Source of the DNA: a virus
Virus genome (UHGV): UHGV-0101776
Reading direction: 5' to 3' (one strand)
Length of the DNA stretch: 11,244 bases
The notes under the pieces were generated by a model that saw only the letters and a list, made by a program, of their open reading frames with translations, made no database searches and was not told where the DNA came from. Made by a program: the position numbers and the translations under genes. Shown piece after piece: positions 57-10,578 of this stretch (positions are counted from its first letter, which is position 1; each line of letters starts with the position of its first letter).

Positions 57-96
57 AAAAAGGCCTGCGATTACCAGCAGGCCTTTATCTTTTTTT
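57..96. terminator. Bidirectional rho-independent terminator at the 3' end of the HNH gene
   Basis: 8-bp stem aggcctgc/gcaggcct (61-84) with an 8-nt loop. It is flanked by an A-run (57-60, a T-run on the minus strand) and by ttatcttttttt (85-96) on the plus strand. The hairpin sits immediately after the minus-strand stop at 85-87. Confidence 0.55.
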
Positions 97-696
97 AACA
101 CGCTTTCGAGTCCTTTTAGATTTTTCCTTAAGATATTCCGCAAGTTTATCCTCATCATTATTAAATTGAGATAAAAGCTCATGCTCGCAATTAAGTGCTT
201 TACTCGCATAAGTTCCATATAGTTTCTTTCTTGCTAGTGCTGCTATGAATGCTGCATCTTCTTTGCTATCGAAATACCCTAACGATATTGTCTTATTTTT
301 ATAACCAACATAAGACTTCCACCTGCCAGTTGTCTTATCCCAAGACACTCCAATCGCACCGGATGTGTTTAACCTATTCCCTACAATGTTTCTTGCATTC
401 TGCTCCTCTGTTGCCAGTCTTAGATTTGAAATCCTATTGTCAAGTCTGTTCCCATTTACATGATCAATAAACTTAGGAGGCCATTTTTTGTATACATAGA
501 ACCAAGCAAGTCTATGCGCATAATACAAAACATTATTTATGCTAATGCATATATAACCACCACTAACACCTCCAGCAATACTACCTTTTACTCTTACTAC
601 TGAATTTGTTTTTAGCCATTTAAATATTCCTGTTTCTGAGTCATATGATAATGTTGACAGAAGCTCATCGTGATCAATTAGTTTTTTTATTCGCAT
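85..696 (-). CDS. HNH homing endonuclease with AP2-type DNA-binding domain
   Basis: 203-aa ORF. HNH motif IDHVNGNRLDNRISNLRLATEEQNARN, followed by an AP2-like segment GVSWDKTTGRWKSYVGYKNKTISLGYFDSKEDAAFIAALARKKLYG. Visibly AT-rich compared with the adjacent helicase gene. No obvious SD before the ATG at 696. Confidence 0.8.
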   Translation of the reverse strand: MRIKKLIDHDELLSTLSYDSETGIFKWLKTNSVVRVKGSIAGGVSGGYICISINNVLYYAHRLAWFYVYKKWPPKFIDHVNGNRLDNRISNLRLATEEQNARNIVGNRLNTSGAIGVSWDKTTGRWKSYVGYKNKTISLGYFDSKEDAAFIAALARKKLYGTYASKALNCEHELLSQFNNDEDKLAEYLKEKSKRTRKRVKKR

Positions 697-778: not shown

Positions 779-2214
779 CAGAATCCTCCTTTCTTCTTGG
801 ATTGCGGTTCCTCGCGTTCACGGCGGCGCATTTCAGCGGACTGTTGGTCTGTGTCATAAATAGCGCCATTTGCCTGAATGCAATACACCGTGCCGGTATT
901 GCCATGACGATTGAGACGAAGGATTAGTTCGGTTTCACCAGGTGGAACACTGTCATCAAAAGCACCTTCACGATGGATCCCCACCCAATAATCGCAATCC
1001 TGTTCAATCTGCCCTGTATCTCGTGAGTCACTTGGTAATGGGCGTTTATTGGTTCTGCTTTCCAGTGCGCGGTTAAGCTGCGTCAGAAGCACAACAACGC
1101 AATCAAGCTCTTTGGCAAGGTTCTTCAGTCCTTTGGTGATCATGCCGTAAGCAAGGTCGTTGCGATCGGCCTTCTCAGCAGTCATTAGTGTCAGGTAATC
1201 GACCAGAATCATGCCAACACATCCTTTTTCTCGCTTGATTCGACGACTTTCGCTGACGATTTGAGCCAGAGATAATCCCGGCGTGTCGTCGATGTAAAGC
1301 AGGTCGATTTCACTCAAGCGATTGGCTGTTTCGATCGCCCTGTTGAAGTCACCATCGTAATCACCCTGATAGCCGTCATCAGCGTCATTTGTCGCCGGAA
1401 GGTAAAAAATATTCGGGTTAACACCTGACTTCTGTCCTACCAGTTTTTCCAGTATCTGGTCACCGGGCATTTCAAGGCTGAACATCAGAGCGGGCTTTTT
1501 CTCATGCACTGCGCAGTTGATTGCCATCTGGCTGTATAGCGTCGTTTTCCCCATCTTAGGGCGAGCGCCAATGACAAACAGAGAGCCTTTCACCAGACCT
1601 TTCGGTGACAGCATCCTGTCCAGCGATGGGATCCCTGTGCTCATTCCTCGTTGTTCGCCTGACGGGTCAAATCGCTTCTCAAGGTCGCTAACCCAGTCTT
1701 CCATGACCTCACCAAATGAGCGAAGGCCGCGACGCGATCCGGTTTTTGCATGGTCTGTCAGTTGCGTAAAAATCGCCTGAATAGCTTCGTACTTCTGCGT
1801 CGCAGTCATTCCGTTGCGGGAATAGAGCAATTCCGTCGCTTCAGTCATGCGGTTGATGGCGTAGCGTTCCATTGCGGTTTCACGAACCTGCATTGCATAG
1901 GCAACGATGTTTGCTGCGCTTGGCGTGTTCTTTGCGATCTCAGCGATATAAGCAAAACCGCCAACAGACGCCGTTAACGATTTACGCTCCAGTTCATCGA
2001 AAAGCGTCAGGCCATCTACTGGCTTTTGCTCCCGGTGCATTCTGGTTATTTCTTCGAAAAGGATTTTGTGTGGTCGGCTGTAAAATGAATCAGGCTTCAG
2101 CATCGCCAGAACTTTCTGGACGCGCTCACTGCTGTCATCATCCAGAAGCAATCCACCAATCACCGCCTGCTCTGCCTCGATGCTATGGGGCGGCGCATAA
2201 AAATTATCGGTCAT
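778..2214 (-). CDS. DnaB-family replicative DNA helicase (phage P22 gene 12-type)
   Basis: Walker A GARPKMGKTTL, Walker B-like ILVDYLTLM and the DnaB-like LLTQLNR motif. The ATG at 2214 overlaps the upstream initiator stop (ATGACCGATAA) with GAGG upstream. The ORF track's longer form starts at a GTG at 2229; the ATG is preferred. Confidence 0.88.
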   Translation of the reverse strand: MTDNFYAPPHSIEAEQAVIGGLLLDDDSSERVQKVLAMLKPDSFYSRPHKILFEEITRMHREQKPVDGLTLFDELERKSLTASVGGFAYIAEIAKNTPSAANIVAYAMQVRETAMERYAINRMTEATELLYSRNGMTATQKYEAIQAIFTQLTDHAKTGSRRGLRSFGEVMEDWVSDLEKRFDPSGEQRGMSTGIPSLDRMLSPKGLVKGSLFVIGARPKMGKTTLYSQMAINCAVHEKKPALMFSLEMPGDQILEKLVGQKSGVNPNIFYLPATNDADDGYQGDYDGDFNRAIETANRLSEIDLLYIDDTPGLSLAQIVSESRRIKREKGCVGMILVDYLTLMTAEKADRNDLAYGMITKGLKNLAKELDCVVVLLTQLNRALESRTNKRPLPSDSRDTGQIEQDCDYWVGIHREGAFDDSVPPGETELILRLNRHGNTGTVYCIQANGAIYDTDQQSAEMRRREREEPQSKKKGGF

Positions 2215-3094
2215 CGTGTTCACCCTCACGAACTTTCAGGTAGGTATTATCGTTAAGCAGGAAATCAAATCCCTTTTTGTGCCAGACGGTTCCGCGTTGA
2301 TGGTTTGGGCGCTCTTCGAACATCCATCGGCAATTTTCGCCAACGTAGCTCAAATAATTTCTCCAGTCCTGCATCGTGAACCCATGCCCGTCAAGTTGGC
2401 GTGTTATTACTCCGGCTTTGCGCCAGAACGTTCGGATCTGGTTTTTACGCTTGTCATTCAGTGCGCGGATTCTTGGCGCTTCAGGAAGGATTTCGTGGTA
2501 AGCATCGACAACATCCTGACAGCTGACGGAAGGTTTTTTCTTGTCAGACTTTTTGTCTGCTGTGGCACTCTCTAATACGTCAGTATTAGAGATATTATTT
2601 ATATTATTGTTTATGGACAACCGTTGGACAACCGTTGGACAATCTCCGCTGAGAGCCGCGCCATTACTGGTGTTTGCGTTGGACAACCGTTGGACAACCG
2701 TTGGACAATTTTTTGCCTGAAAATCGTCATATTTAACGATTGTAAACAGGCTAAATTTCTTCCCCATCGAGCAAATATTAAGCATCCCTTTCGACTCAAA
2801 AGTCCGTAATAAGCTCCGAACTTTGTTGTCGGGGATGAATGTTTCTCTGACCAGCGACGGGCGTCCAGTTATCATCTGACCGCGATCAACAGTTATCGGC
2901 CCGATATCCGTATTGACGACAGTAGATTCGTGATTAGCCTTGAGGATTAAGTGAAGCCAAAGATGTACTGCCTGAGAGTCCTTATAGAGCCTGCTGTCCA
3001 TAAACTGGCGGTGTATAGAGACATACCCCATACTGGATGCCTCCTGATGTTGTACAGGGTTATGCCTGTAATCAGCTAACTTAACGACGCCCAT
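2204..3094 (-). CDS. Phage replication initiator (lambda O-like role), origin embedded in the gene
   Basis: 296-aa ORF directly upstream of, and overlapping, the helicase gene. Strong SD AGGAG 6 nt before the ATG at 3094. Iteron repeats lie inside the central part of the gene (translated as the repeated CPTVVQRLS), the same arrangement as lambda O/ori. Conserved-looking C-terminal domain (TFWRKAG...GTVWHKKGFDFLLNDNTYLKV). Confidence 0.75.
   Translation of the reverse strand: MGVVKLADYRHNPVQHQEASSMGYVSIHRQFMDSRLYKDSQAVHLWLHLILKANHESTVVNTDIGPITVDRGQMITGRPSLVRETFIPDNKVRSLLRTFESKGMLNICSMGKKFSLFTIVKYDDFQAKNCPTVVQRLSNANTSNGAALSGDCPTVVQRLSINNNINNISNTDVLESATADKKSDKKKPSVSCQDVVDAYHEILPEAPRIRALNDKRKNQIRTFWRKAGVITRQLDGHGFTMQDWRNYLSYVGENCRWMFEERPNHQRGTVWHKKGFDFLLNDNTYLKVREGEHDDR
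2585..2708. repeat. Replication-origin iterons plus adjacent AT-rich region
   Basis: Six copies of GGACAA at 11-bp spacing (unit GGACAACCGTT) in two clusters of three, 2615-2642 and 2681-2708. The clusters are 66 bp apart (6 x 11), so all copies are in helical phase. An AT-rich stretch at 2585-2614 flanks them on the side downstream in gene orientation. Confidence 0.75.
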
Positions 3095-3253: not shown

Positions 3254-3330
3254 TGGATTGATCCAGTAATTCCCTCAGAATTGCATATCAATTTGCTTAG
3301 AGTCCCCGGCGGCCACCGGGGATTTTTTCT
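3254..3330 (+). ncRNA. oop: oop-like antisense RNA overlapping the cII 3' end, with intrinsic terminator
   Basis: The segment gatccagtaat...cctcagaa... ends in the hairpin ccccgg-cggcca-ccgggg plus attttttcttt (3305-3330). It closely resembles my recollection of lambda oop RNA in sequence, length (about 77 nt) and position antisense to the cII 3' end. CATAAT at 3240-3245 is a candidate -10 for Po. Confidence 0.6.
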
Positions 3331-3571
3331 TTGTGATTCCATCAAGCGCATACTTAAAAGCCCTACTAATCGGACTGATGTCTGATGCCATTCCGAAAGC
3401 ACACAAGACTGAAGCAATAAATCTCCAGTCCGTTCTGCTTATCTTCGATTCATGACAGCCAATCATCTTTGCCAGACCGCGCTGGGTAAGCGTTGACAGG
3501 TTGATGAGTAAATCTGTTTCTGCGCGATCAACGTCACGCTGGGATAGTTTGCTGTAACTTGTTTGTTCCAT
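3275..3571 (-). CDS. cII: CII-like transcriptional activator
   Basis: 98 aa, with clear similarity to lambda CII in the HTH and C-terminal parts (...KISRTDW...KKKSPVAAGDSKQIDMQF versus lambda ...QISRWKRDW...KKRPAATERSEQIQMEF). Sits immediately downstream of cro and nutR. Confidence 0.85.
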   Translation of the reverse strand: MEQTSYSKLSQRDVDRAETDLLINLSTLTQRGLAKMIGCHESKISRTDWRFIASVLCAFGMASDISPISRAFKYALDGITKKKSPVAAGDSKQIDMQF

Positions 3572-3709: not shown

Positions 3710-3943
3710 TTATGCTGCTGATGCTCTACGCGATACGAACACCAGATTTTCCTTTTTCACAGGTTTATAACCCGTGAAATTACGAGTGGCTTCTTCGATT
3801 GCATTCGCTTTATCTGGGGAAGCTCTTCGAAACCCATATGCAATCTGATCAAGATAGCCAACTGAAGTATTCGCTAATGCGGCGAGTCGCTTCCATTCCT
3901 CACTAGAAGCCTCTTTTCGCCAGCGTAGTAGTTCATTACTCAT
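3710..3943 (-). CDS. cro: Cro-like HTH repressor
   Basis: 77-aa ORF divergent from cI across the operator region, first gene of the operon containing cII. GGAGG SD 6 nt before the ATG. HTH-like segment WKRLAALANTSVGYLDQIAYG. Confidence 0.7.
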   Translation of the reverse strand: MSNELLRWRKEASSEEWKRLAALANTSVGYLDQIAYGFRRASPDKANAIEEATRNFTGYKPVKKENLVFVSRRASAA

Positions 3944-4056: not shown

Positions 4057-4761
4057 ATGGAAAACAAAGATATTCGCAAATCGAATCTGGCGTTTTTGCT
4101 AGATGAGCATAAAAAAATCGCGGGTAACACTAATGCAAGCTTTGCCGATAAGCTTGGAGTTAGCCCTTCTCAACTCACGCAAGTCTCCGGTGAAAAAAGC
4201 ACTCGAAACATAGGGGATAAACTAGCAAGAAAATTCGAAGCCGCACTTGGGTTACCTAATGGGTGGCTTGATTTGGTACATGATGTAACACCAATTGCAT
4301 CATGCTCAGATTCTTTAACTTTTGTCGGTCAGGTAAGAAAAGGGTTAGTGCGCGTGGTTGGTGAGGCAATTCTTGGTGTTGATGGTGCCATCGAGATGAC
4401 CGAAGAGCGCGATGGGTGGCTCAAGATTTATAGCGATGATCCAGATGCCTTTGGTCTTCGTGTGAAAGGAGACAGCATGTGGCCTAGAATAAAATCAGGA
4501 GAATATGTACTCATTGAGCCTAACACCAAAGTATTCCCGGGGGATGAGGTGTTTGTCAGAACCGTTGAAGGACACAACATGATCAAGATTCTTGGCTATG
4601 ACAGAGATGGAGAATACCAATTTACAAGCATCAACCAGGACCACAGGCCAATAACGTTACCTTATCATCAAGTAGCAAAGGTGGAGTATGTGGCTGGTAT
4701 TCTGAAGCAATCTCGTCATCTGGATGACATCGAGGCAAGGGAGTGGCTGAAAAGTTTGTGA
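4057..4761 (+). CDS. cI: CI-type prophage repressor (N-terminal HTH, C-terminal S24/LexA-like autopeptidase)
   Basis: 234 aa. N-terminal HTH region; C-terminal domain with the GDSMWP serine motif typical of LexA/CI self-cleaving repressors. SD GAGGGAG upstream. Divergent from cro. Confidence 0.88.
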   Translation: MENKDIRKSNLAFLLDEHKKIAGNTNASFADKLGVSPSQLTQVSGEKSTRNIGDKLARKFEAALGLPNGWLDLVHDVTPIASCSDSLTFVGQVRKGLVRVVGEAILGVDGAIEMTEERDGWLKIYSDDPDAFGLRVKGDSMWPRIKSGEYVLIEPNTKVFPGDEVFVRTVEGHNMIKILGYDRDGEYQFTSINQDHRPITLPYHQVAKVEYVAGILKQSRHLDDIEAREWLKSL

Positions 4762-4884
4762 CTTCAAGTACGCGACAAGCCCCGTCCTTCAGGGCGTGGA
4801 GGATGTCAAAATAACTTTAAATAACACACCACCAACATTTAACACATTGAATTAAAAAACCTACAATATTTGATGAGAGGCGTT

Positions 4885-5205
4885 ATGGAACCGGTCAAAA
4901 TTAAACCATCTGTGGATTATATTGAAACCTATGCGGACTTCGCTAGTTTTGCTCCACTACCGGGAGCGGAAAAAAATCTCATTTGTATACATTTTATCGC
5001 AAACAAGTCAATACCTGCGGTACTATCCCAAAATGATATACCAGATCAACCAGGTAGAGCGAATATGCAGATAGGCTCTGTAAATGAACTCAATCAGCAA
5101 TGCACTGTGATAATGCCAATGGCACAACTAAAGGCTCTTCAAGAGAATATAGTTCTTCTTTTCGAACAATTAGAGGCACAAAACTCTAATGGAGCGAAGT
5201 CGTAA
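4885..5205 (+). CDS. Hypothetical protein A of a two-gene moron in the rexA/rexB-equivalent slot
   Basis: ORF-track ORF 4870..5205. Preferred start is the ATG at 4885, with GAGG 5 nt upstream (alternative ATG at 4873). 107 aa with no recognisable motif. AT-rich. The stop overlaps the next start (TAATG). Confidence 0.5.
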   Translation: MEPVKIKPSVDYIETYADFASFAPLPGAEKNLICIHFIANKSIPAVLSQNDIPDQPGRANMQIGSVNELNQQCTVIMPMAQLKALQENIVLLFEQLEAQNSNGAKS

Positions 5206-5888
5206 TGCAACAACCGGAAGAAGTAGGTGATTTAACTATTACTTACAAAACATCAAGTATTGTTAAACCACTGCAAGTTTCCCTGAATAACGTTAATACT
5301 CGCGATTTCATGATGTTCATGGAAACAGCAAAAGGTAATCTGTTTTCTACGCCTATTTCCTCTTATTCACCAAAAAACATGGTGGATGATGCGACCAATT
5401 CCCAGCTAACTGCTACAATCGTAGATAAAGGAGGGGTTGCCGATTGTAAAGGACAATCTAATGTTATCCCACCGTACGAGGAAACTCCTATACAGGGAAC
5501 CGCAATGTCCGATTTGAGCAGAAACGAAATACAGGCACTTCTGAAGGCAAATAAAGCTGAAGTGGATGCAGTGGCCTCAAAAATGCAGGCTGATATGGCC
5601 AAATGGCGTGAACTAATGGCTTCAGATATAAAGGAGATGAAGCATTTAGTTGTTACTCAGCACGAACAAATCAACAGTCGTCTGGACATACAATCGAGTA
5701 GAATTGAGAGTGCCCTTGACTCCCAATCAAAAAAGATCGATGCAGCTCTTTCTGTTCAAGAGGCAAAGTTAGAAGGTAAGCTTAGTGATGTTAAGCTTGA
5801 TATAATCAAATGGGCCCTTGGCTTGCCAGCATTAGCATTTACTGTATATAAAATCTACGGATTGCTCTCTGGAGTCTCAACCCCCTAA
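5205..5888 (+). CDS. Hypothetical membrane-anchored coiled-coil protein B of the two-gene moron
   Basis: 227 aa. N-terminal globular part, a central heptad-like coiled-coil region (about residues 110-200) and a C-terminal hydrophobic helix IIKWALGLPALAFTVYKIYGLLSGV. Start overlaps the stop of protein A. Followed by an intrinsic terminator. Confidence 0.6.
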   Translation: MQQPEEVGDLTITYKTSSIVKPLQVSLNNVNTRDFMMFMETAKGNLFSTPISSYSPKNMVDDATNSQLTATIVDKGGVADCKGQSNVIPPYEETPIQGTAMSDLSRNEIQALLKANKAEVDAVASKMQADMAKWRELMASDIKEMKHLVVTQHEQINSRLDIQSSRIESALDSQSKKIDAALSVQEAKLEGKLSDVKLDIIKWALGLPALAFTVYKIYGLLSGVSTP

Positions 5889-6260: not shown

Positions 6261-6313
6261 GGGATGCAATGCCGAAGCAACTCTCTCAGGAGTAGCTTCG
6301 GGATTGCATCGCC
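6261..6313 (+). promoter_or_regulatory. Long imperfect hairpin in the N leader (candidate RNase III processing or translation-control element)
   Basis: Arms gggatgcaatgccgaagc (6261-6278) and gcttcgggattgcatcgcc (6295-6313) pair over about 17 bp with one mismatch and one bulge, enclosing a 16-nt loop. Located between nutL and the N SD (GGGAGG at 6325-6330). Confidence 0.45.
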
Positions 6314-6335
6314 AGAGTTTATTCGGGAGGAATCC

Positions 6336-6608
6336 ATGTCCAGAAAAACAGAATTTAAAGGAACCGCAGCTTCTCGCCGTAGAGAGCGTCGCGCAAATCT
6401 GCAAAGTCAGGAGGCGATCAGCTCCGACAAGCTACACAGGCCAACCCCTTCACGAGTGGTCTTGCAATGCAAGCGCAAACCAGCAATGAGAGCAGAAGTG
6501 ATAACTCTGACAACGTTGACCAGAAAATATGAAGGTTCAACTTGTCTTCCGAACGTAGCTCTTTACGCGGCAGGCTACCGGAAATCAAAACAACTGACGG
6601 CGAGATGA
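6336..6608 (+). CDS. N: N-like transcription antitermination protein
   Basis: 90 aa. N-terminal arginine-rich motif ASRRRERRANLQ, matching the RRRERRA of the lambda N ARM. Positioned downstream of PL/nutL with a leader of about 185 nt. The ORF-track frame 6264..6608 extends upstream; the ATG at 6336 has the SD. Confidence 0.7.
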   Translation: MSRKTEFKGTAASRRRERRANLQSQEAISSDKLHRPTPSRVVLQCKRKPAMRAEVITLTTLTRKYEGSTCLPNVALYAAGYRKSKQLTAR

Positions 6609-6624
6609 TAAATTCATTTGCTAA

Positions 6625-7206
6625 TTACTTGTTTTTGCCATGCTTATCCTGAGCGATAAGTTCATCCATAAGGCTGTCTGCCTTCCCGGCAAACCGAATG
6701 TAGCACTCATTTCTATAGCGTTCCGGGATAACAAAACGGTCGATTTCAGGATATCCAGTAGCAGAAGGTATCCGAATAAGAAGCCCTTTTTCGAGCAATG
6801 AGATTGCTTCAGGGCTTCCCTTTTCTGTCTTTAGCTGGTTATTCGCGGCTACAGCGAATGCCAAATACGCTCTTTCTCCAAGAGTTAACGAATCAAACAA
6901 ATCTTGCACATATTTTTCTTCTTTAGATTTGCGCTTCTGAGCAGCGGATACCTCAATTCTTTCAGTCACAGCGTGATAAGCGGAATTAACAACACCGTTA
7001 AGCACATAGCTAACGCAGAACAACAGGATGTAATACATCCAATAATAAGGAAGGATTTCTGGATTATGCAGGTTTATCCATTCTTTTACGCTTACCGGCA
7101 TAACAATAATCAATATGATCAGGATGATTAGCATATGAATCAACTGTTTAAGTGTCATTCCTTGCAGGAAAAAATGCATTAGTTCCTGCCACCATGAGTT
7201 GTTCAT
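6625..7206 (-). CDS. sieB: Superinfection exclusion protein B (SieB-like) membrane protein
   Basis: 193 aa with two N-terminal hydrophobic helices (LIHMLIILIILIIVMPV, YYWMYYILLFCVSYVL). Transcribed opposite to N, in the same relative position as lambda sieB. Identity is from recollection of the family. Confidence 0.65.
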   Translation of the reverse strand: MNNSWWQELMHFFLQGMTLKQLIHMLIILIILIIVMPVSVKEWINLHNPEILPYYWMYYILLFCVSYVLNGVVNSAYHAVTERIEVSAAQKRKSKEEKYVQDLFDSLTLGERAYLAFAVAANNQLKTEKGSPEAISLLEKGLLIRIPSATGYPEIDRFVIPERYRNECYIRFAGKADSLMDELIAQDKHGKNK

Positions 7207-7349: not shown

Positions 7350-7436
7350 ATGGAAGAAGAATTTGAAGAGTTCGAAGAGCATCCTCAGGATGTGATGGAA
7401 CAATACCAGGACTATCCGTATGACTACGACTATTGA
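7350..7436 (+). CDS. Small acidic ORF (28 aa)
   Basis: Product MEEEFEEFEEHPQDVMEQYQDYPYDYDY. SD-like AAGGTGA 6 nt upstream. Overlaps the ral start by 17 nt. Possibly equivalent to the small ORF annotated near ral in lambda (uncertain). Confidence 0.4.
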   Translation: MEEEFEEFEEHPQDVMEQYQDYPYDYDY

Positions 7437-7620
7437 TAAAAATCAATGGTGTGGACAATTCAAGCGATGCAATGGATGCAAGCTGCAATCGGAATGCATG
7501 GTTAAGCCTGAAGAAATGTTTCCTGTAATGGAAGATGGGAAATATGTCGATAAATGGGCAATACGAACGACGGCAATGATTGCCAGAGAACTTGGTAAAC
7601 AGAACAACAAGGCTGCCTAA
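7420..7620 (+). CDS. ral: Ral-like restriction alleviation protein
   Basis: 66 aa, MTTTIDKNQWCGQFKRCNGCKLQSECMVKPEEMFPVMEDGKYVDKWAIRTTAMIARELGKQNNKAA. Matches my recollection of lambda Ral in length and sequence. Sits in the PL operon between N/sieB and cIII. Confidence 0.6.
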   Translation: MTTTIDKNQWCGQFKRCNGCKLQSECMVKPEEMFPVMEDGKYVDKWAIRTTAMIARELGKQNNKAA

Positions 7621-7756
7621 TGGTGGCCTTTATTTTTGGCATAAACAACAGAATAAACACTGCACTGTGTATTCATTCCAACGAGTGAATACACGGAGCA
7701 ATGTCGCTCGTAACTAAACAGGAGCCGACTTGTTCTGATTATTGGAAATCTTCTTT

Positions 7757-7782
7757 GCCCTCCAATGTGAGGGCTTTTTTAT
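7757..7782 (+). terminator. Rho-independent terminator between ral and cIII
   Basis: Hairpin gccctc-caatgt-gagggc followed by ttttttat. Genes downstream would need N-mediated antitermination. Confidence 0.7.
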
Positions 7783-7842
7783 ATGCATACCAATAACGCT
7801 TCATTCGAGGCGTTTTCGTTATGTATAAATAAGGAGCACACC

Positions 7843-7983
7843 ATGCAATATGCCATTGCAGGGTGGCCTGTTGCTGGCTGCCCTTCCGAATCTTTACTTG
7901 AACGAATCACACGTAAATTACGTGATGGATGGAAACGCCTTATCGACATACTTAATCAGCCAGGAGTTCCCAAAAATGGATAA
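7843..7983 (+). CDS. cIII: CIII (inhibitor of FtsH-mediated CII degradation)
   Basis: 46 aa, MQYAIAGWPVAGCPSESLLERITRKLRDGWKRLIDILNQPGVPKNG. Essentially identical to my recollection of lambda CIII over this length, but lacking the last 8 residues. AAGGAG SD 6 nt upstream. The ORF-track ORF 7783..7983 includes a spurious N-terminal extension. Confidence 0.85.
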   Translation: MQYAIAGWPVAGCPSESLLERITRKLRDGWKRLIDILNQPGVPKNG

Positions 7984-8089
7984 AACACTTATGGCTATCC
8001 AGACTAAATTCACTATCGCCACTTTTATTGGCGATGAAAAGATGTTTCGTGAAGCCGTAGAAGCCTACAGAAAATGGAGGTCAAAATGA
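7976..8089 (+). CDS. Small protein overlapping the cIII 3' end, Kil-like by position
   Basis: 37 aa, MDKTLMAIQTKFTIATFIGDEKMFREAVEAYRKWRSK. The start overlaps the cIII stop, as lambda kil does. The sequence resembles my uncertain recollection of the lambda Kil N-terminus. Confidence 0.4.
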   Translation: MDKTLMAIQTKFTIATFIGDEKMFREAVEAYRKWRSK

Positions 8090-8274
8090 TTCCGGTAGAA
8101 CTGGCGAAAACTCCAGAGTTAAGTCGATTAAAAAGAGAATATCACATTGCTGAGGCTCGTTACTGGCGTAAAGCGGGAGATAAATCAAAGAAACAACTTT
8201 GTTTATGGCAGGCGCAAAGAGAGCGCATGAATGAGCGCGAATTTCTTTCCTGCCCATCCGAATTACCATTCTGA
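8086..8274 (+). CDS. Hypothetical protein (62 aa)
   Basis: ORF-track ORF 8074..8274. The ATG at 8086 is preceded by GGAGG; the alternative start at 8074 has no SD. No recognisable motif. Confidence 0.45.
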   Translation: MIPVELAKTPELSRLKREYHIAEARYWRKAGDKSKKQLCLWQAQRERMNEREFLSCPSELPF

Positions 8275-8282
8275 GGCAAATT

Positions 8283-8963
8283 ATGGGAACTGCGACATTA
8301 ATACTCGGTGAATCTGGCACCGGAAAATCAACCAGCATGAGAAATATCAATCCAGAGGAAGCAATACTTATAAAACCAATAGGCAAGCCGCTACCATTTA
8401 AATCAAAAGACTGGCTTGCATGGGATGCCAGAGCAAAAAAAGGAACCGTAGTTACCACTGACAAATGGGACGTAATAGTTGCTGCAATTAAGCGTGCTCA
8501 CGAATACGGAAAAAGAATCGTTATTGTTGATGACTTCCAGTATGTGATGAGCAATGAGTTTATGCGCCGCTCAGAAGAAAAATCGTTTGATAAATTTACT
8601 GAGATAGGCCGCCACGCATGGGAGGTGATTAAGGCTGCACAGGATGCACCTGATGACCTGAGAGTCTATTTTCTTGCACATACCGAAGAAACCCCTATGG
8701 GGCGCGTGAAAATGAAAACTATCGGCAAAATGCTGGACGAGAAAATCACTGTCGAAGGCATGTTTACTATAGTTCTTCGCACTCTTACCCGCGATGACCA
8801 GTTCTTTTTCACCACGAAAAACAACGGTGCAGACACTGTCAAATCCCCAATGGGAATGTTTGATTCCAATGAGATTGATAACGATCTCTCTTTCGTCGAT
8901 GCCACTGTTTGTGATTACTACGGCATCAATAATGTTCATCAAATTAAGGAAAACGCCGCATGA
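8283..8963 (+). CDS. P-loop NTPase, possibly a Sak4-like core-only RecA-type recombination ATPase
   Basis: 226 aa. Walker A GESGTGKST at residues 9-17 and Walker B-like RIVIVDDFQ. Size and motif layout are typical of phage AAA_24/Sak4-type ATPases. GAGG SD upstream. Confidence 0.75.
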   Translation: MGTATLILGESGTGKSTSMRNINPEEAILIKPIGKPLPFKSKDWLAWDARAKKGTVVTTDKWDVIVAAIKRAHEYGKRIVIVDDFQYVMSNEFMRRSEEKSFDKFTEIGRHAWEVIKAAQDAPDDLRVYFLAHTEETPMGRVKMKTIGKMLDEKITVEGMFTIVLRTLTRDDQFFFTTKNNGADTVKSPMGMFDSNEIDNDLSFVDATVCDYYGINNVHQIKENAA

Positions 8964-9547
8964 GCAACGTGATTTTTACTTATAACGAAGAAGCAGCACT
9001 GACCGCAGGGCAAGGTGGTTTTATTAACGAAACTGGCGCCCATATCATTACCATTACTGAAGCAGAACTAAAGCAATCAGAAAAAGGAGCCAAATTTATT
9101 GAGTTTTCTGGAGAATCCGACGACGGCCGTAAAATCCAATATCTTAGCGTCTGTGTTCAGAAAAATGACGGAACGGAAAACAAATTTGGCGCAAATGTCG
9201 TTCACGCCATGATGGGGTGTGCCGGGATTGGACAATTAACGCAGCATATGGTTTCCGCCAGTAAATTTGTTGCACCTGAATTTCATGGAAAGAAAATCGG
9301 GTTAGTGCTCCAGAAAGTATTAACCACAAACAAAAAGACTGGCGCAGACAGCTACCAGATGGAAATACGCATCCCGTTTATTGCACAAACAGGTCAAACC
9401 CTTAAAGAAAAGGCAGAAGGCAAGCAACCAGAAACTATCGCCGACATGGTTGCCAGCCTCAAAGATAAAGACAATCGCTCTAAAAACGTAAGCCAGAATC
9501 ATGCAGATGATTATGGTTACAGCCAGAACGATTACCCTGCTTTCTGA
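8960..9547 (+). CDS. Hypothetical protein, possibly the ssDNA-binding partner of the ATPase
   Basis: 195 aa. Start overlaps the ATPase stop (ATGA). C-terminal acidic/aromatic tail ...HADDYGYSQNDYPAF resembles SSB-type partner-interaction tails. Assignment is by inference only. Confidence 0.6.
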   Translation: MSNVIFTYNEEAALTAGQGGFINETGAHIITITEAELKQSEKGAKFIEFSGESDDGRKIQYLSVCVQKNDGTENKFGANVVHAMMGCAGIGQLTQHMVSASKFVAPEFHGKKIGLVLQKVLTTNKKTGADSYQMEIRIPFIAQTGQTLKEKAEGKQPETIADMVASLKDKDNRSKNVSQNHADDYGYSQNDYPAF

Positions 9548-9570
9548 TTACTGAAAATAAGGCTCCCATT

Positions 9571-9867
9571 ATGCCAGCGCCTCTGTATGGTGCGGATGAC
9601 CCGCGCAACTGCTCCGGTAGCTCCAAGGCGGAGGTGCTGGAGAATATCAAAAACAATTTCGACGCGTTTCTTGCTCTGACACCAGAAACAAAAGCAGAAC
9701 GGATGTACCGACGCGATATACAACTCGCGCTAAAACAGGAGAAGGACCGAACAAACGAAACAGCAATGAGACCGTTGCGAAAAGCGACAATAGACAAATT
9801 CCCTGAATATATCGACCCGCGCCTGCGTAATTACCGCTCACGCTATGGCGCTATCAGTAATGACTGA
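9571..9867 (+). CDS. Hypothetical protein (98 aa)
   Basis: Intact ORF co-oriented in the PL operon. AAGG upstream of the ATG. No recognisable motif. Confidence 0.5.
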
Positions 9868-9877
9868 GGAATTTACC

Positions 9878-10042
9878 ATGAGAGGACTTGCATACAATCC
9901 CGGCATTCTTCCGGCAGAAATGATTATTCGCCAACGCGTAAAGCCAATGCCATCGAGAGAGGAATTGCTTAAGAGAAATTCTTTTCCGTCAGTGAATCAA
10001 AACAAATATCTGAATGCGATGTTGCGGAGTGGGAAGAAATGA
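9878..10042 (+). CDS. Hypothetical small protein (54 aa)
   Basis: ATG at 9878 preceded by GAGGA (spacing 7). The ORF-track ORF 9845..10042 starts upstream without an SD. Stop overlaps the next start (ATGA). Confidence 0.4.
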
Positions 10043-10578
10043 AACAAATGTCACTAATTGAGATGGATGGATTCCTGAAAGGTAAATGCATCCCAAGCGA
10101 TTTAAAGGTTAACGAAACAAACGCTGAATATCTGGTGCGTAAATTTGCTGAAGCGGAGGCCAAGTGCGCGGCGCTGGCGGCGGAGAGTGCGCTGGCTCGT
10201 AAGGCAGTTCAGGCATTCTGCGATGTTGTTGGCGACAACACCGAGGTTATCTGTGAGGCGGTTGGGAGAGATGGCGTTCTGGTTATTTTGGAGGCCATGA
10301 AGGCAACAGGAAATATGCCAGCCACCGATGCTTTCCTGGCTGAAGTGAAGACTGAAGCACGCAAGGAGGGCGCTTACTTTGTGGCGAACAGAATGCTGGC
10401 TGCCTGGGAAGCTGGTTTTATTGATGATACTGCGAAGAACGCCGCGGATATTGCCCGGATGATTCTTACCTCTACTGAGTTTATGGCTAATGCGCCGGAA
10501 GGCGATTTTGACCGCTCATTCTCTGATGGCGTTCTCGAAGATATCGCCGCCCAGCTTCGCAAAGGAGGCAACCAGTGA
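10039..10578 (+). CDS. Hypothetical protein (179 aa)
   Basis: Intact ORF whose start overlaps the previous stop. Ala-rich, with a predicted helical N-terminal region. No recognisable motif. Confidence 0.6.

What the first reader, a model, noticed from the sequence alone, without database searches (positions are those of the whole stretch)
8283..9547. Red-type recombination genes replaced by a P-loop ATPase and SSB-like pair
Where lambda carries gam/bet/exo, this region encodes a small Walker A/B ATPase (Sak4-like by size and motif) coupled by ATGA overlap to a 195-aa protein with an SSB-like acidic/aromatic C-terminal tail. This indicates a different recombination or annealing module.
Basis: inference. 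Interest (0 to 1): 0.4.

Follow-up and report, generated by a model that had tools for sequence, protein, structure and literature searches.

The report
HK620-type Sak4–SSB phage recombination module

Summary
ORFs 8283-8963 (226 aa) and 8960-9547 (195 aa) exist and overlap by ATGA. The first has Walker A and B motifs. The second ends in an acidic/aromatic tail. They lie in the early-left operon after N, sieB, ral, cIII and kil, which is the slot where lambda carries gam/bet/exo.

The ATPase matches phrog_2872 "Sak4-like ssDNA annealing protein" (E 5e-108) and passes Pfam AAA_24. The second protein matches phrog_743 "single strand DNA binding protein" (E 5e-66). The DNA is 98.1% identical to HK620 hkaL/hkaK, and the proteins are 224/226 and 192/195 identical. 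Hutinet et al. 2018 showed that this HK620 pair is an ATP-dependent annealase stimulated by its cognate SSB through the SSB's last six residues. Predicted folds agree: a RecA/Rad51 core for the ATPase, and a fold like DUF669 and N4-type phage SSBs for the partner.

Abc2 (anti-RecBCD) fills the Gam-like role, and there is no exonuclease.

Two things differ from HK620. The essential SSB tail carries P194A (NDYPAF instead of NDYPPF), a position that varies across the family. The abc2 allele is a divergent swapped cassette. The pair occurs in 179 of 5,426 complete E. coli genomes. Verdict: already known, low interest.

The parts
8086..8274 (+). hkaM homologue, a small orphan protein that is the first gene of the HK620-type Rec module. 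The ORF can also start at the ATG at 8074. Function unknown.
   Evidence: 61/62 identical to HK620 HkaM. Matches phrog_1723 at 3e-33. PMC5928155 describes it as an orphan of unknown function.
8283..8963 (+). sak4 (hkaL homologue): a 226-aa core-only RecA/Rad51-like, ATP-dependent single-strand annealing protein.
   Evidence: phrog_2872 at 5.3e-108 and Pfam AAA_24 at 30.4 bits against a cut-off of 27. 224/226 identical to HK620 HkaL. The AF2 model (pLDDT 86.5) matches Rad51, Rad51 paralogues, RadA and staphylococcal phage Sak4 8rc5.
8307..8330 (+). Walker A motif GESGTGKS (residues 9-16).
   Evidence: Read from the translation. G9, S11, G12, G14 and K15 are invariant in 43 homologues.
8517..8534 (+). 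Walker B motif IVIVDD (residues 79-84).
   Evidence: Read from the translation. D83 and D84 are invariant.
8960..8963 (+). ATGA start/stop overlap between sak4 and ssb, which suggests translational coupling.
   Evidence: Read directly from the sequence. HK620 has the same arrangement.
8960..9547 (+). ssb (hkaK homologue): a 195-aa atypical phage single-stranded-DNA-binding protein (the 'DUF669'/'SSB-2' type) and the cognate partner of Sak4.
   Evidence: phrog_743 at 5.4e-66. 192/195 identical to HK620 HkaK. The AF2 model (pLDDT 81.5) is beta-rich with a disordered tail from residue 177. Its best matches are DUF669 proteins and N4-like phage SSBs in BFVD (1e-11 to 2e-7), and PrgE and SsbA in the PDB.
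9527..9544 (+). C-terminal hexapeptide NDYPAF of the SSB. It corresponds to NDYPPF in HK620, which is the Sak4-recruiting tail. It carries P194A.
   Evidence: for the substitution. (PMC5928155) for the role of the tail. for variability at the penultimate position.
9571..9867 (+). abc2: an anti-RecBCD protein and the last gene of the module. This is a divergent allele.
   Evidence: Pfam Anti-RecBCD_p2 at 1.5e-35 and phrog_656 at 5e-45. E 3.7e-32 to P22 Abc2, PDB 8b1t. Only 61% identical to HK620 Abc2. The DNA identity trough spans 9551-9850.

Best explanation
The region is the recombination (Rec) module of a mosaic lambdoid, HK620/P22-like enterobacterial prophage or phage. The module is hkaM-sak4-ssb-abc2 and sits in the pL early-left operon.

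The mechanism is transferred from the HK620 proteins, which are 98-99% identical. The phage SSB coats single-stranded DNA. Once it is bound to DNA, its C-terminal tail (NDYPAF here) recruits Sak4, a RecA-core-only ATPase. Sak4 then binds ssDNA and anneals complementary strands in an ATP-dependent way. This gives RecA-independent single-strand annealing and recombineering, and weak crossover recombination. It does not give true strand exchange.

Abc2 binds host RecBCD (the RecC subunit) and redirects it, so the host enzyme supplies end resection and no phage exonuclease is needed.

Shown here: gene presence and order, near-identity to the characterised proteins, conserved motifs and predicted folds. 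Inferred: that the proteins of this window have the same activities, that the ATGA overlap couples their translation, and that the P194A tail variant still works.
For: Family assignment: phrog_2872 Sak4-like at 5.3e-108, phrog_743 SSB at 5.4e-66, abc2 phrog_656 at 5e-45, and Pfam AAA_24 above its gathering score.

Identity to HK620: 98.1% over 1,265 nt to hkaL/hkaK, 224/226 and 192/195 at protein level, with the same gene order as the annotated HK620 genome.

Experimental work on the HK620 pair (PMC5928155): ssDNA binding and annealing need ATP. Recombineering was 15-fold over background with sak4 alone and about 210-fold with sak4+ssb. Deleting the last six SSB residues cost about 10-fold.

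Conservation: Walker A and B residues are invariant and the terminal F of the SSB is conserved.

Folds: the Sak4 model matches Rad51, Rad51 paralogues, RadA, RecA and Sak4 8rc5 (E about 1e-7 to 1e-6, TM about 0.5). The SSB model matches DUF669 and N4-like phage SSBs, and PrgE and SsbA.

The exact Sak4 and SSB sequences are already in public E. coli assemblies, on 265 and 13 contigs respectively.
Against: No function was measured for this window's proteins. The SSB has a substitution, P194A, inside the six-residue tail that the HK620 study found essential, and its effect is untested. The penultimate residue does vary naturally (P, A, D, Q, S, T, L, M). The Abc2 partner is only 61% identical to the HK620 and P22 proteins. 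The SSB gives no hit in the current Pfam library even at E<=10, and its structural similarity to bacterial SSB is weak (E 1e-3 to 1e-2, TM 0.2-0.6). PMC12315714 states that HkaK is not a homologue of bacterial SSB. Whether the element is an active phage cannot be judged from 11 kb.
Confidence: 0.93

Rival explanations
1. The pair works mainly in phage DNA replication, not in general recombination. It would drive recombination-dependent initiation, or the switch from theta to rolling-circle replication and concatemer formation.
For: The introduction of PMC5928155 reports that Sak4 and the phage SSB of staphylococcal phages are needed for growth and for producing genome multimers. PMC12315714 links lambdoid Rec modules to the theta-to-sigma switch. 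The module is co-transcribed early from pL, going by gene order.
Against: This does not exclude the main explanation, because the same annealing biochemistry would underlie it. For HK620-type proteins, only annealing and recombineering have been shown directly. No replication phenotype for HK620 sak4 turned up in the papers read.
Confidence: 0.3
2. The module is present but functionally weakened. The P194A change in the SSB tail would reduce Sak4 recruitment, or the genes would sit in a decaying, cryptic prophage.
For: The tail hexapeptide is essential in HK620. The exact NDYPAF protein is rarer (13 contigs) than the exact Sak4 sequence (265 contigs). No complete E. coli genome matches at least 80% of the window.
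Against: All four module ORFs are intact and full length. The terminal F and the acidic and aromatic residues are retained. Other family members have A, S, T, D or Q at the penultimate position, for example ...FSAF. The flanking immunity and replication genes are intact too.
Confidence: 0.08
3. The 226-aa protein is a generic P-loop NTPase with a function unrelated to recombination, such as an AAA_22/Zot-like or defence-type ATPase, and the neighbouring protein is not an SSB.
For: Weak Pfam matches to AAA_22 (26.3 bits, below the cut-off of 27), AAA_16, ABC_tran and Zot, and a weak PADLOC mad8 P-loop hit. RefSeq names the pair only 'ATP-binding protein' and 'hypothetical protein'.
Against: Those matches cover only the P-loop and score below their cut-offs. 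The full-length match is to the Sak4 PHROG, the protein is 99% identical to a biochemically characterised Sak4, and the predicted fold is RecA/Rad51-like.
Confidence: 0.01

Closest known systems
Phage HK620 HkaL (Sak4) and HkaK (SSB-HK620, 'SSB-2') within the hkaM-sak4-ssb-abc2 Rec module (Hutinet et al. 2018, PMC5928155)
   Same: Same gene order, the same ATGA overlap and the same lengths (226 and 195 aa). 98.1% DNA identity and 99% and 98% protein identity. Same position after cIII and kil in the early-left operon.
   Different: Two substitutions in Sak4 (D43E and A68V, written window to HK620). Three in the SSB (E153V, D163N and A194P, written window to HK620), one of them in the essential tail (NDYPAF against NDYPPF). 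The downstream abc2 is a different allele, 61% identical. The immunity, N and replication regions are unrelated or mosaic.
Lambda Red (Gam, Bet, Exo)
   Same: Same slot in the pL operon downstream of cIII and kil. Same overall job: RecA-independent annealing recombination plus control of RecBCD.
   Different: No homology. Bet is a Rad52-like, ATP-independent annealase, whereas Sak4 is an ATP-dependent RecA-core protein that needs a phage SSB. There is no Exo. Abc2 modifies RecBCD rather than blocking it as Gam does.
P22 arf-erf-abc1-abc2 module
   Same: Four-gene layout ending in abc2. The Abc2 here matches P22 Abc2 (PDB 8b1t) at E 3.7e-32.
   Different: Erf (Rad52-like) is replaced by Sak4, and Abc1 by the SSB. 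According to PMC5928155 neither pair is homologous.
Staphylococcal phage Sak4 (PDB 8rc5, in complex with SaPI2 Stl) and Rad51 paralogues/RadB
   Same: The predicted fold is a core-only RecA/Rad51 ATPase (Foldseek TM about 0.55 to 8rc5, E 8e-7).
   Different: Only about 14% sequence identity. No profile hit to any PDB sequence. Nothing here indicates an interaction with a satellite repressor.
N4 gp45-type and DUF669 phage SSBs, and PrgE of plasmid pCF10
   Same: Best structural matches of the SSB model: BFVD DUF669 proteins and N4-like phage SSBs at E 1e-11 to 2e-7, and PrgE 8s4s at E 1.2e-3 with TMt 0.60.
   Different: Sequence identity is 13-25%. No hit to the current Pfam library or to PDB sequences.

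Membership tests
Sak4 family (core-only RecA single-strand annealing proteins; phrog_2872, Pfam AAA_24) | Full-length match to the family profile | tested here: met
   phrog_2872 at E 5.3e-108, covering residues 1-220 of 226. Pfam AAA_24 at 30.4 bits against a gathering score of 27.
Sak4 family (core-only RecA single-strand annealing proteins; phrog_2872, Pfam AAA_24) | Conserved Walker A and Walker B motifs | tested here: met
   GESGTGKS (9-16) and IVIVDD (79-84). The key residues are invariant in 43 homologues.
Sak4 family (core-only RecA single-strand annealing proteins; phrog_2872, Pfam AAA_24) | RecA/Rad51 core fold without the extra N- or C-terminal DNA-binding domain | tested here: met
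   This rests on a predicted structure only. The AF2 model has pLDDT 86.5. Top Foldseek hits are Rad51, BCDX2/CX3 paralogues, RadA, KaiC, RecA and Sak4 8rc5. The protein is 226 aa, against about 310-350 aa for Rad51 and RecA.
Sak4 family (core-only RecA single-strand annealing proteins; phrog_2872, Pfam AAA_24) | Adjacent cognate phage ssb gene (reported for about 80% of sak4 genes) | tested here: met
   ssb overlaps the sak4 stop codon by ATGA. The 80% figure comes from PMC5928155.
Sak4 family (core-only RecA single-strand annealing proteins; phrog_2872, Pfam AAA_24) | ATP-dependent ssDNA binding and annealing, and recombineering in vivo | not testable with these tools
   Shown for the 99%-identical HK620 protein (PMC5928155). 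Not measured for this sequence.
HK620-type phage SSB (phrog_743; 'DUF669'/'SSB-2') | Match to the family profile | tested here: met
   phrog_743 at E 5.4e-66. 98% identical to HkaK.
HK620-type phage SSB (phrog_743; 'DUF669'/'SSB-2') | Pfam DUF669 domain, as stated in PMC5928155 and in NCBI names | tested here: not met
   hmmscan against the current Pfam-A gives no family even at E<=10, and precomputed Pfam is '-' for all homologues. NCBI still names them DUF669, and the BFVD structural neighbours are DUF669 proteins. So the relationship is visible by fold and by name but not with this HMM.
HK620-type phage SSB (phrog_743; 'DUF669'/'SSB-2') | Acidic/aromatic C-terminal tail ending in F that recruits Sak4 | tested here: met
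   ...DDYGYSQNDYPAF. The terminal F is at least 90% conserved. The tail is disordered in the model (pLDDT below 50 from residue 177). The recruiting function itself was not tested for the P194A variant.
Bacterial-type OB-fold SSB (Pfam SSB, E. coli SSB) | Recognisable homology or OB fold shared with bacterial SSB | tested here: inconclusive
   No sequence hit to Pfam or the PDB. Foldseek gives PrgE at E 1.2e-3 (TMt 0.60), then B. subtilis SsbA at E 1.4e-2 (TM 0.23-0.36). The literature disagrees: 'distant homolog' in PMC5928155 against 'not a homolog' in PMC12315714.
Lambda Red system (Gam/Bet/Exo) | Presence of Bet (RecT/Redbeta), Exo (YqaJ) or Gam homologues | tested here: not met
   None of the ORFs scanned between 7420 and 10578 hits these families in Pfam or PHROGs.
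Abc2 anti-RecBCD (Pfam PF11043) | Full-length match to the Abc2 profile and to P22 Abc2 | tested here: met
   PF11043 at E 1.5e-35 (residues 1-98 against profile positions 1-97). PDB 8b1t at E 3.7e-32.

The most novel reading that the evidence does not exclude
The rare NDYPAF tail (P194A) of this SSB, together with the divergent abc2 allele swapped in directly downstream, could be a co-adapted variant of the HK620 module. It might have altered partner specificity, for example a changed affinity of the SSB tail for Sak4 compared with host SSB-interacting proteins, or escape from a host defence that senses phage SSB or recombinase. My evidence does not exclude this and does not support it. The penultimate tail residue varies freely across the family, and the abc2 swap looks like ordinary lambdoid mosaicism.
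Probability: 0.05. Interest if true: 0.3.

Novelty: already known. Interest (0 to 1): 0.08.

Why it matters
It matters little as a discovery. The module type, its biochemistry and its distribution in lambdoid phages are all published (PMC5928155, PMC12315714).

There are two practical points. First, RefSeq/PGAP still labels these genes 'ATP-binding protein' and 'hypothetical protein' or 'DUF669' in E. coli genomes. The window is therefore a case where an experimentally grounded name (Sak4 annealase / phage SSB) can be transferred with confidence. Second, natural tail variants such as NDYPAF are ready-made probes for the SSB-tail/Sak4 interaction, which has no solved structure yet.

Tried and rejected
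1. Pfam on the SSB-like protein gave no hit even at E<=10. NCBIfam gave nothing meaningful for any of the four module proteins. I therefore relied on PHROGs, direct comparison with HK620 and fold prediction.

2. Profile searches of both families against PDB sequences found nothing significant. Only fold comparison linked them to Rad51, RecA and Sak4, and to SSB-like proteins.

3. PADLOC gave only sub-threshold P-loop matches for Sak4 and nothing for the SSB, so a defence-system reading was rejected.

4. I searched for an identical prophage. No complete E. coli genome covers at least 80% of the window, so the window is a new mosaic combination of known cassettes. This has no bearing on the finding.

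5. I considered that P194A might be a meaningful change. The tail survey shows the penultimate residue is variable, so there is no basis to claim a functional difference.

6. GFP-like beta-barrel Foldseek hits for the SSB model (probability 0.1-0.3, TM about 0.15) were dismissed as noise.

7. The output lists Abc2 and the SSB under one 'cluster 2'. I treated that as a display artefact and used only the per-protein contig counts.

Full report
**What is in the sequence.** The window is the early control region of a lambdoid phage or prophage. On the minus strand lie an HNH/AP2 endonuclease (85-696), a DnaB-like helicase (778-2229), an O-like replication initiator (2204-3094), a CII protein (3275-3571) and a Cro-position repressor (3710-3943). 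On the plus strand lie a CI-type LexA/S24 repressor (4057-4761) and then the early-left operon:
- an N-like antiterminator (6264-6608);
- SieB, on the opposite strand (6625-7206);
- Ral (7420-7620);
- CIII (within 7783-7983);
- Kil (7850-8089);
- a small hkaM-like ORF (8074/8086-8274);
- the two ORFs of the finding (8283-8963 and 8960-9547);
- Abc2 (9571-9867);
- DUF2737 (9845-10042);
- an HK97 gp37-like protein (10039-10578).

The ATGA overlap at 8960-8963 can be read directly. Walker A (GESGTGKS) and Walker B (IVIVDD) are present and invariant across homologues. The second protein ends in the acidic/aromatic tail ...DDYGYSQNDYPAF.

**What it is.** They do not.
- The 226-aa protein matches phrog_2872 'Sak4-like ssDNA annealing protein' over its full length (E 5.3e-108). 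It passes Pfam AAA_24 at 30.4 bits against a gathering score of 27.
- The 195-aa protein matches phrog_743 'single strand DNA binding protein' (E 5.4e-66).
- The 1,265-nt stretch is 98.1% identical to hkaL-hkaK of coliphage HK620. The proteins are 224/226 and 192/195 identical. hkaM upstream is 61/62 identical.
- Gene order is the same as in the annotated HK620 genome: cIII, kil, hkaM, hkaL (Sak4), hkaK (SSB), hkaJ (abc2), DUF2737.

**How it works (established for the HK620 proteins, inferred here).** Hutinet et al. 2018 (PMC5928155) reported the following for HK620.
[quoted passage not shown] It binds ssDNA and anneals complementary strands only with ATP.
- Alone it is a weak recombineering enzyme, about 15-fold over background.
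- Co-expressing the adjacent ssb raises this to about 210-fold, as much as the whole four-gene module.
- The SSB alone does nothing.
- Deleting the SSB's last six residues (NDYPPF) costs about 10-fold and abolishes Sak4 binding to SSB-coated ssDNA.
- The pair does not catalyse strand exchange in vitro and does not depend on RecA.

According to the same paper and to PMC12315714, Abc2 binds RecBCD (the RecC subunit) and redirects it, so no phage exonuclease is needed. At 98-99% identity I transfer this mechanism to the window with high confidence.

**Independent checks made here.** An AlphaFold2 model of the ATPase (43-sequence alignment, pLDDT 86.5) finds Rad51, the human RAD51 paralogue complexes, RadA, DMC1, RecA and KaiC. 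It also finds the solved staphylococcal phage Sak4 (8rc5, TM 0.55). This fits a core-only RecA/Rad51 fold.

The SSB model (pLDDT 81.5) is a beta-rich domain with a disordered tail from residue 177. Its viral neighbours are DUF669 proteins and the annotated SSBs of N4-like phages (E 1e-11 to 2e-7). That reproduces the N4 gp45 link reported in 2018. In the PDB its best matches are the atypical OB-fold SSB-like protein PrgE of pCF10 (E 1.2e-3, TMt 0.60) and then bacterial SsbA/SSB at weak scores.

Whether this SSB is a true homologue of bacterial SSB stays inconclusive. There is no Pfam or PDB sequence hit, and the two papers disagree.

The functional unit is four genes, not two. Abc2 provides the Gam-like function.

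The SSB carries P194A inside the essential hexapeptide (NDYPAF). In 45 aligned homologues, and in a tally of tails from about 130 homologues, the terminal F is nearly invariant. The penultimate residue varies (P, A, D, Q, S, T, L, M), so the change is probably tolerated.

DNA identity to HK620 is 95-100% from 7651 to 9550. It collapses to 53-84% across 9551-9850, which is the abc2 gene, and returns to 100% after 9851. The Abc2 protein is 61% identical to that of HK620, but it is clearly Abc2. This is a cassette swap typical of lambdoid mosaicism.

**How common it is.** The pair is found at 80% coverage or more in 179 of 5,426 complete E. coli genomes, always on the chromosome. It is also found in 66 phage records, including many Stx1a- and Stx2a-converting phages. 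The exact Sak4 protein is on 265 public contigs and the exact SSB variant on 13. No complete E. coli genome matches at least 80% of the whole window, so this combination of cassettes is new but every cassette is known. RefSeq still names the two genes 'ATP-binding protein' and 'hypothetical protein' or 'DUF669'.

**Verdict.** The module is the already characterised HK620-type Sak4-SSB(-Abc2) Rec module, one of the recognised alternative Rec module types of lambdoid phages (PMC12315714). Novelty: already known. Interest: low.

Noticed in passing
window 9551-9850 (abc2, 9571-9867): A sharp mosaic joint. DNA identity to HK620 falls from 95-100% to 53-84% across the abc2 gene only and then returns to 100%. 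The Abc2 protein is 61% identical to those of HK620 and P22, yet the exact sequence occurs on at least 1,000 public contigs.
   Followed up: partly
window 4870-5205 and 5205-5888 (+): A two-gene cassette immediately downstream of cI, in the slot that holds rex or other lysogen-expressed genes in lambdoid phages. The first protein has no family hit. The second is phrog_14825 (unknown function), with a CCDC90-like coiled coil and a hydrophobic C-terminal helix. In the closest E. coli prophage this slot holds a HigB/HigA toxin-antitoxin pair instead. It could be an exclusion or defence gene pair.
   Followed up: partly
window 2603-2720 (inside the O-like gene 2204-3094, - strand): Two clusters of 11-nt tandem repeats (TGGACAACCGT), 66 nt apart, inside the replication initiator gene. 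These are likely origin iterons, as in the lambda O gene and ori.
   Followed up: partly
window 85-696 (-): An HNH_3 plus AP2-domain endonuclease (phrog_99 at 3e-72), homing-endonuclease-like, located just after the DnaB-like helicase gene. GC content is low here (0.35-0.39) compared with the neighbouring 0.49-0.52.
   Followed up: no
window 7783-8089 (+): The Kil ORF can be read as a 79-aa form (7850-8089) that overlaps the cIII ORF in another frame. phrog_2461 'Kil' matches it over residues 1-78, whereas HK620 and RefSeq annotate only the 37-aa C-terminal Kil peptide.
   Followed up: no
window 8960-9547, and E. coli loci: An annotation gap. The experimentally characterised SSB family has no hit in the current Pfam-A (even at E<=10) or in NCBIfam. 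RefSeq calls the pair 'ATP-binding protein' and 'hypothetical protein' or 'DUF669'.
   Followed up: yes
window 6625-7206 (-) and 7420-7620 (+): A SieB superinfection-exclusion gene (Pfam SieB at 7e-25) and a Ral restriction-alleviation gene (Pfam Ral at 1.6e-48) lie between N and cIII, as in lambda.
   Followed up: no
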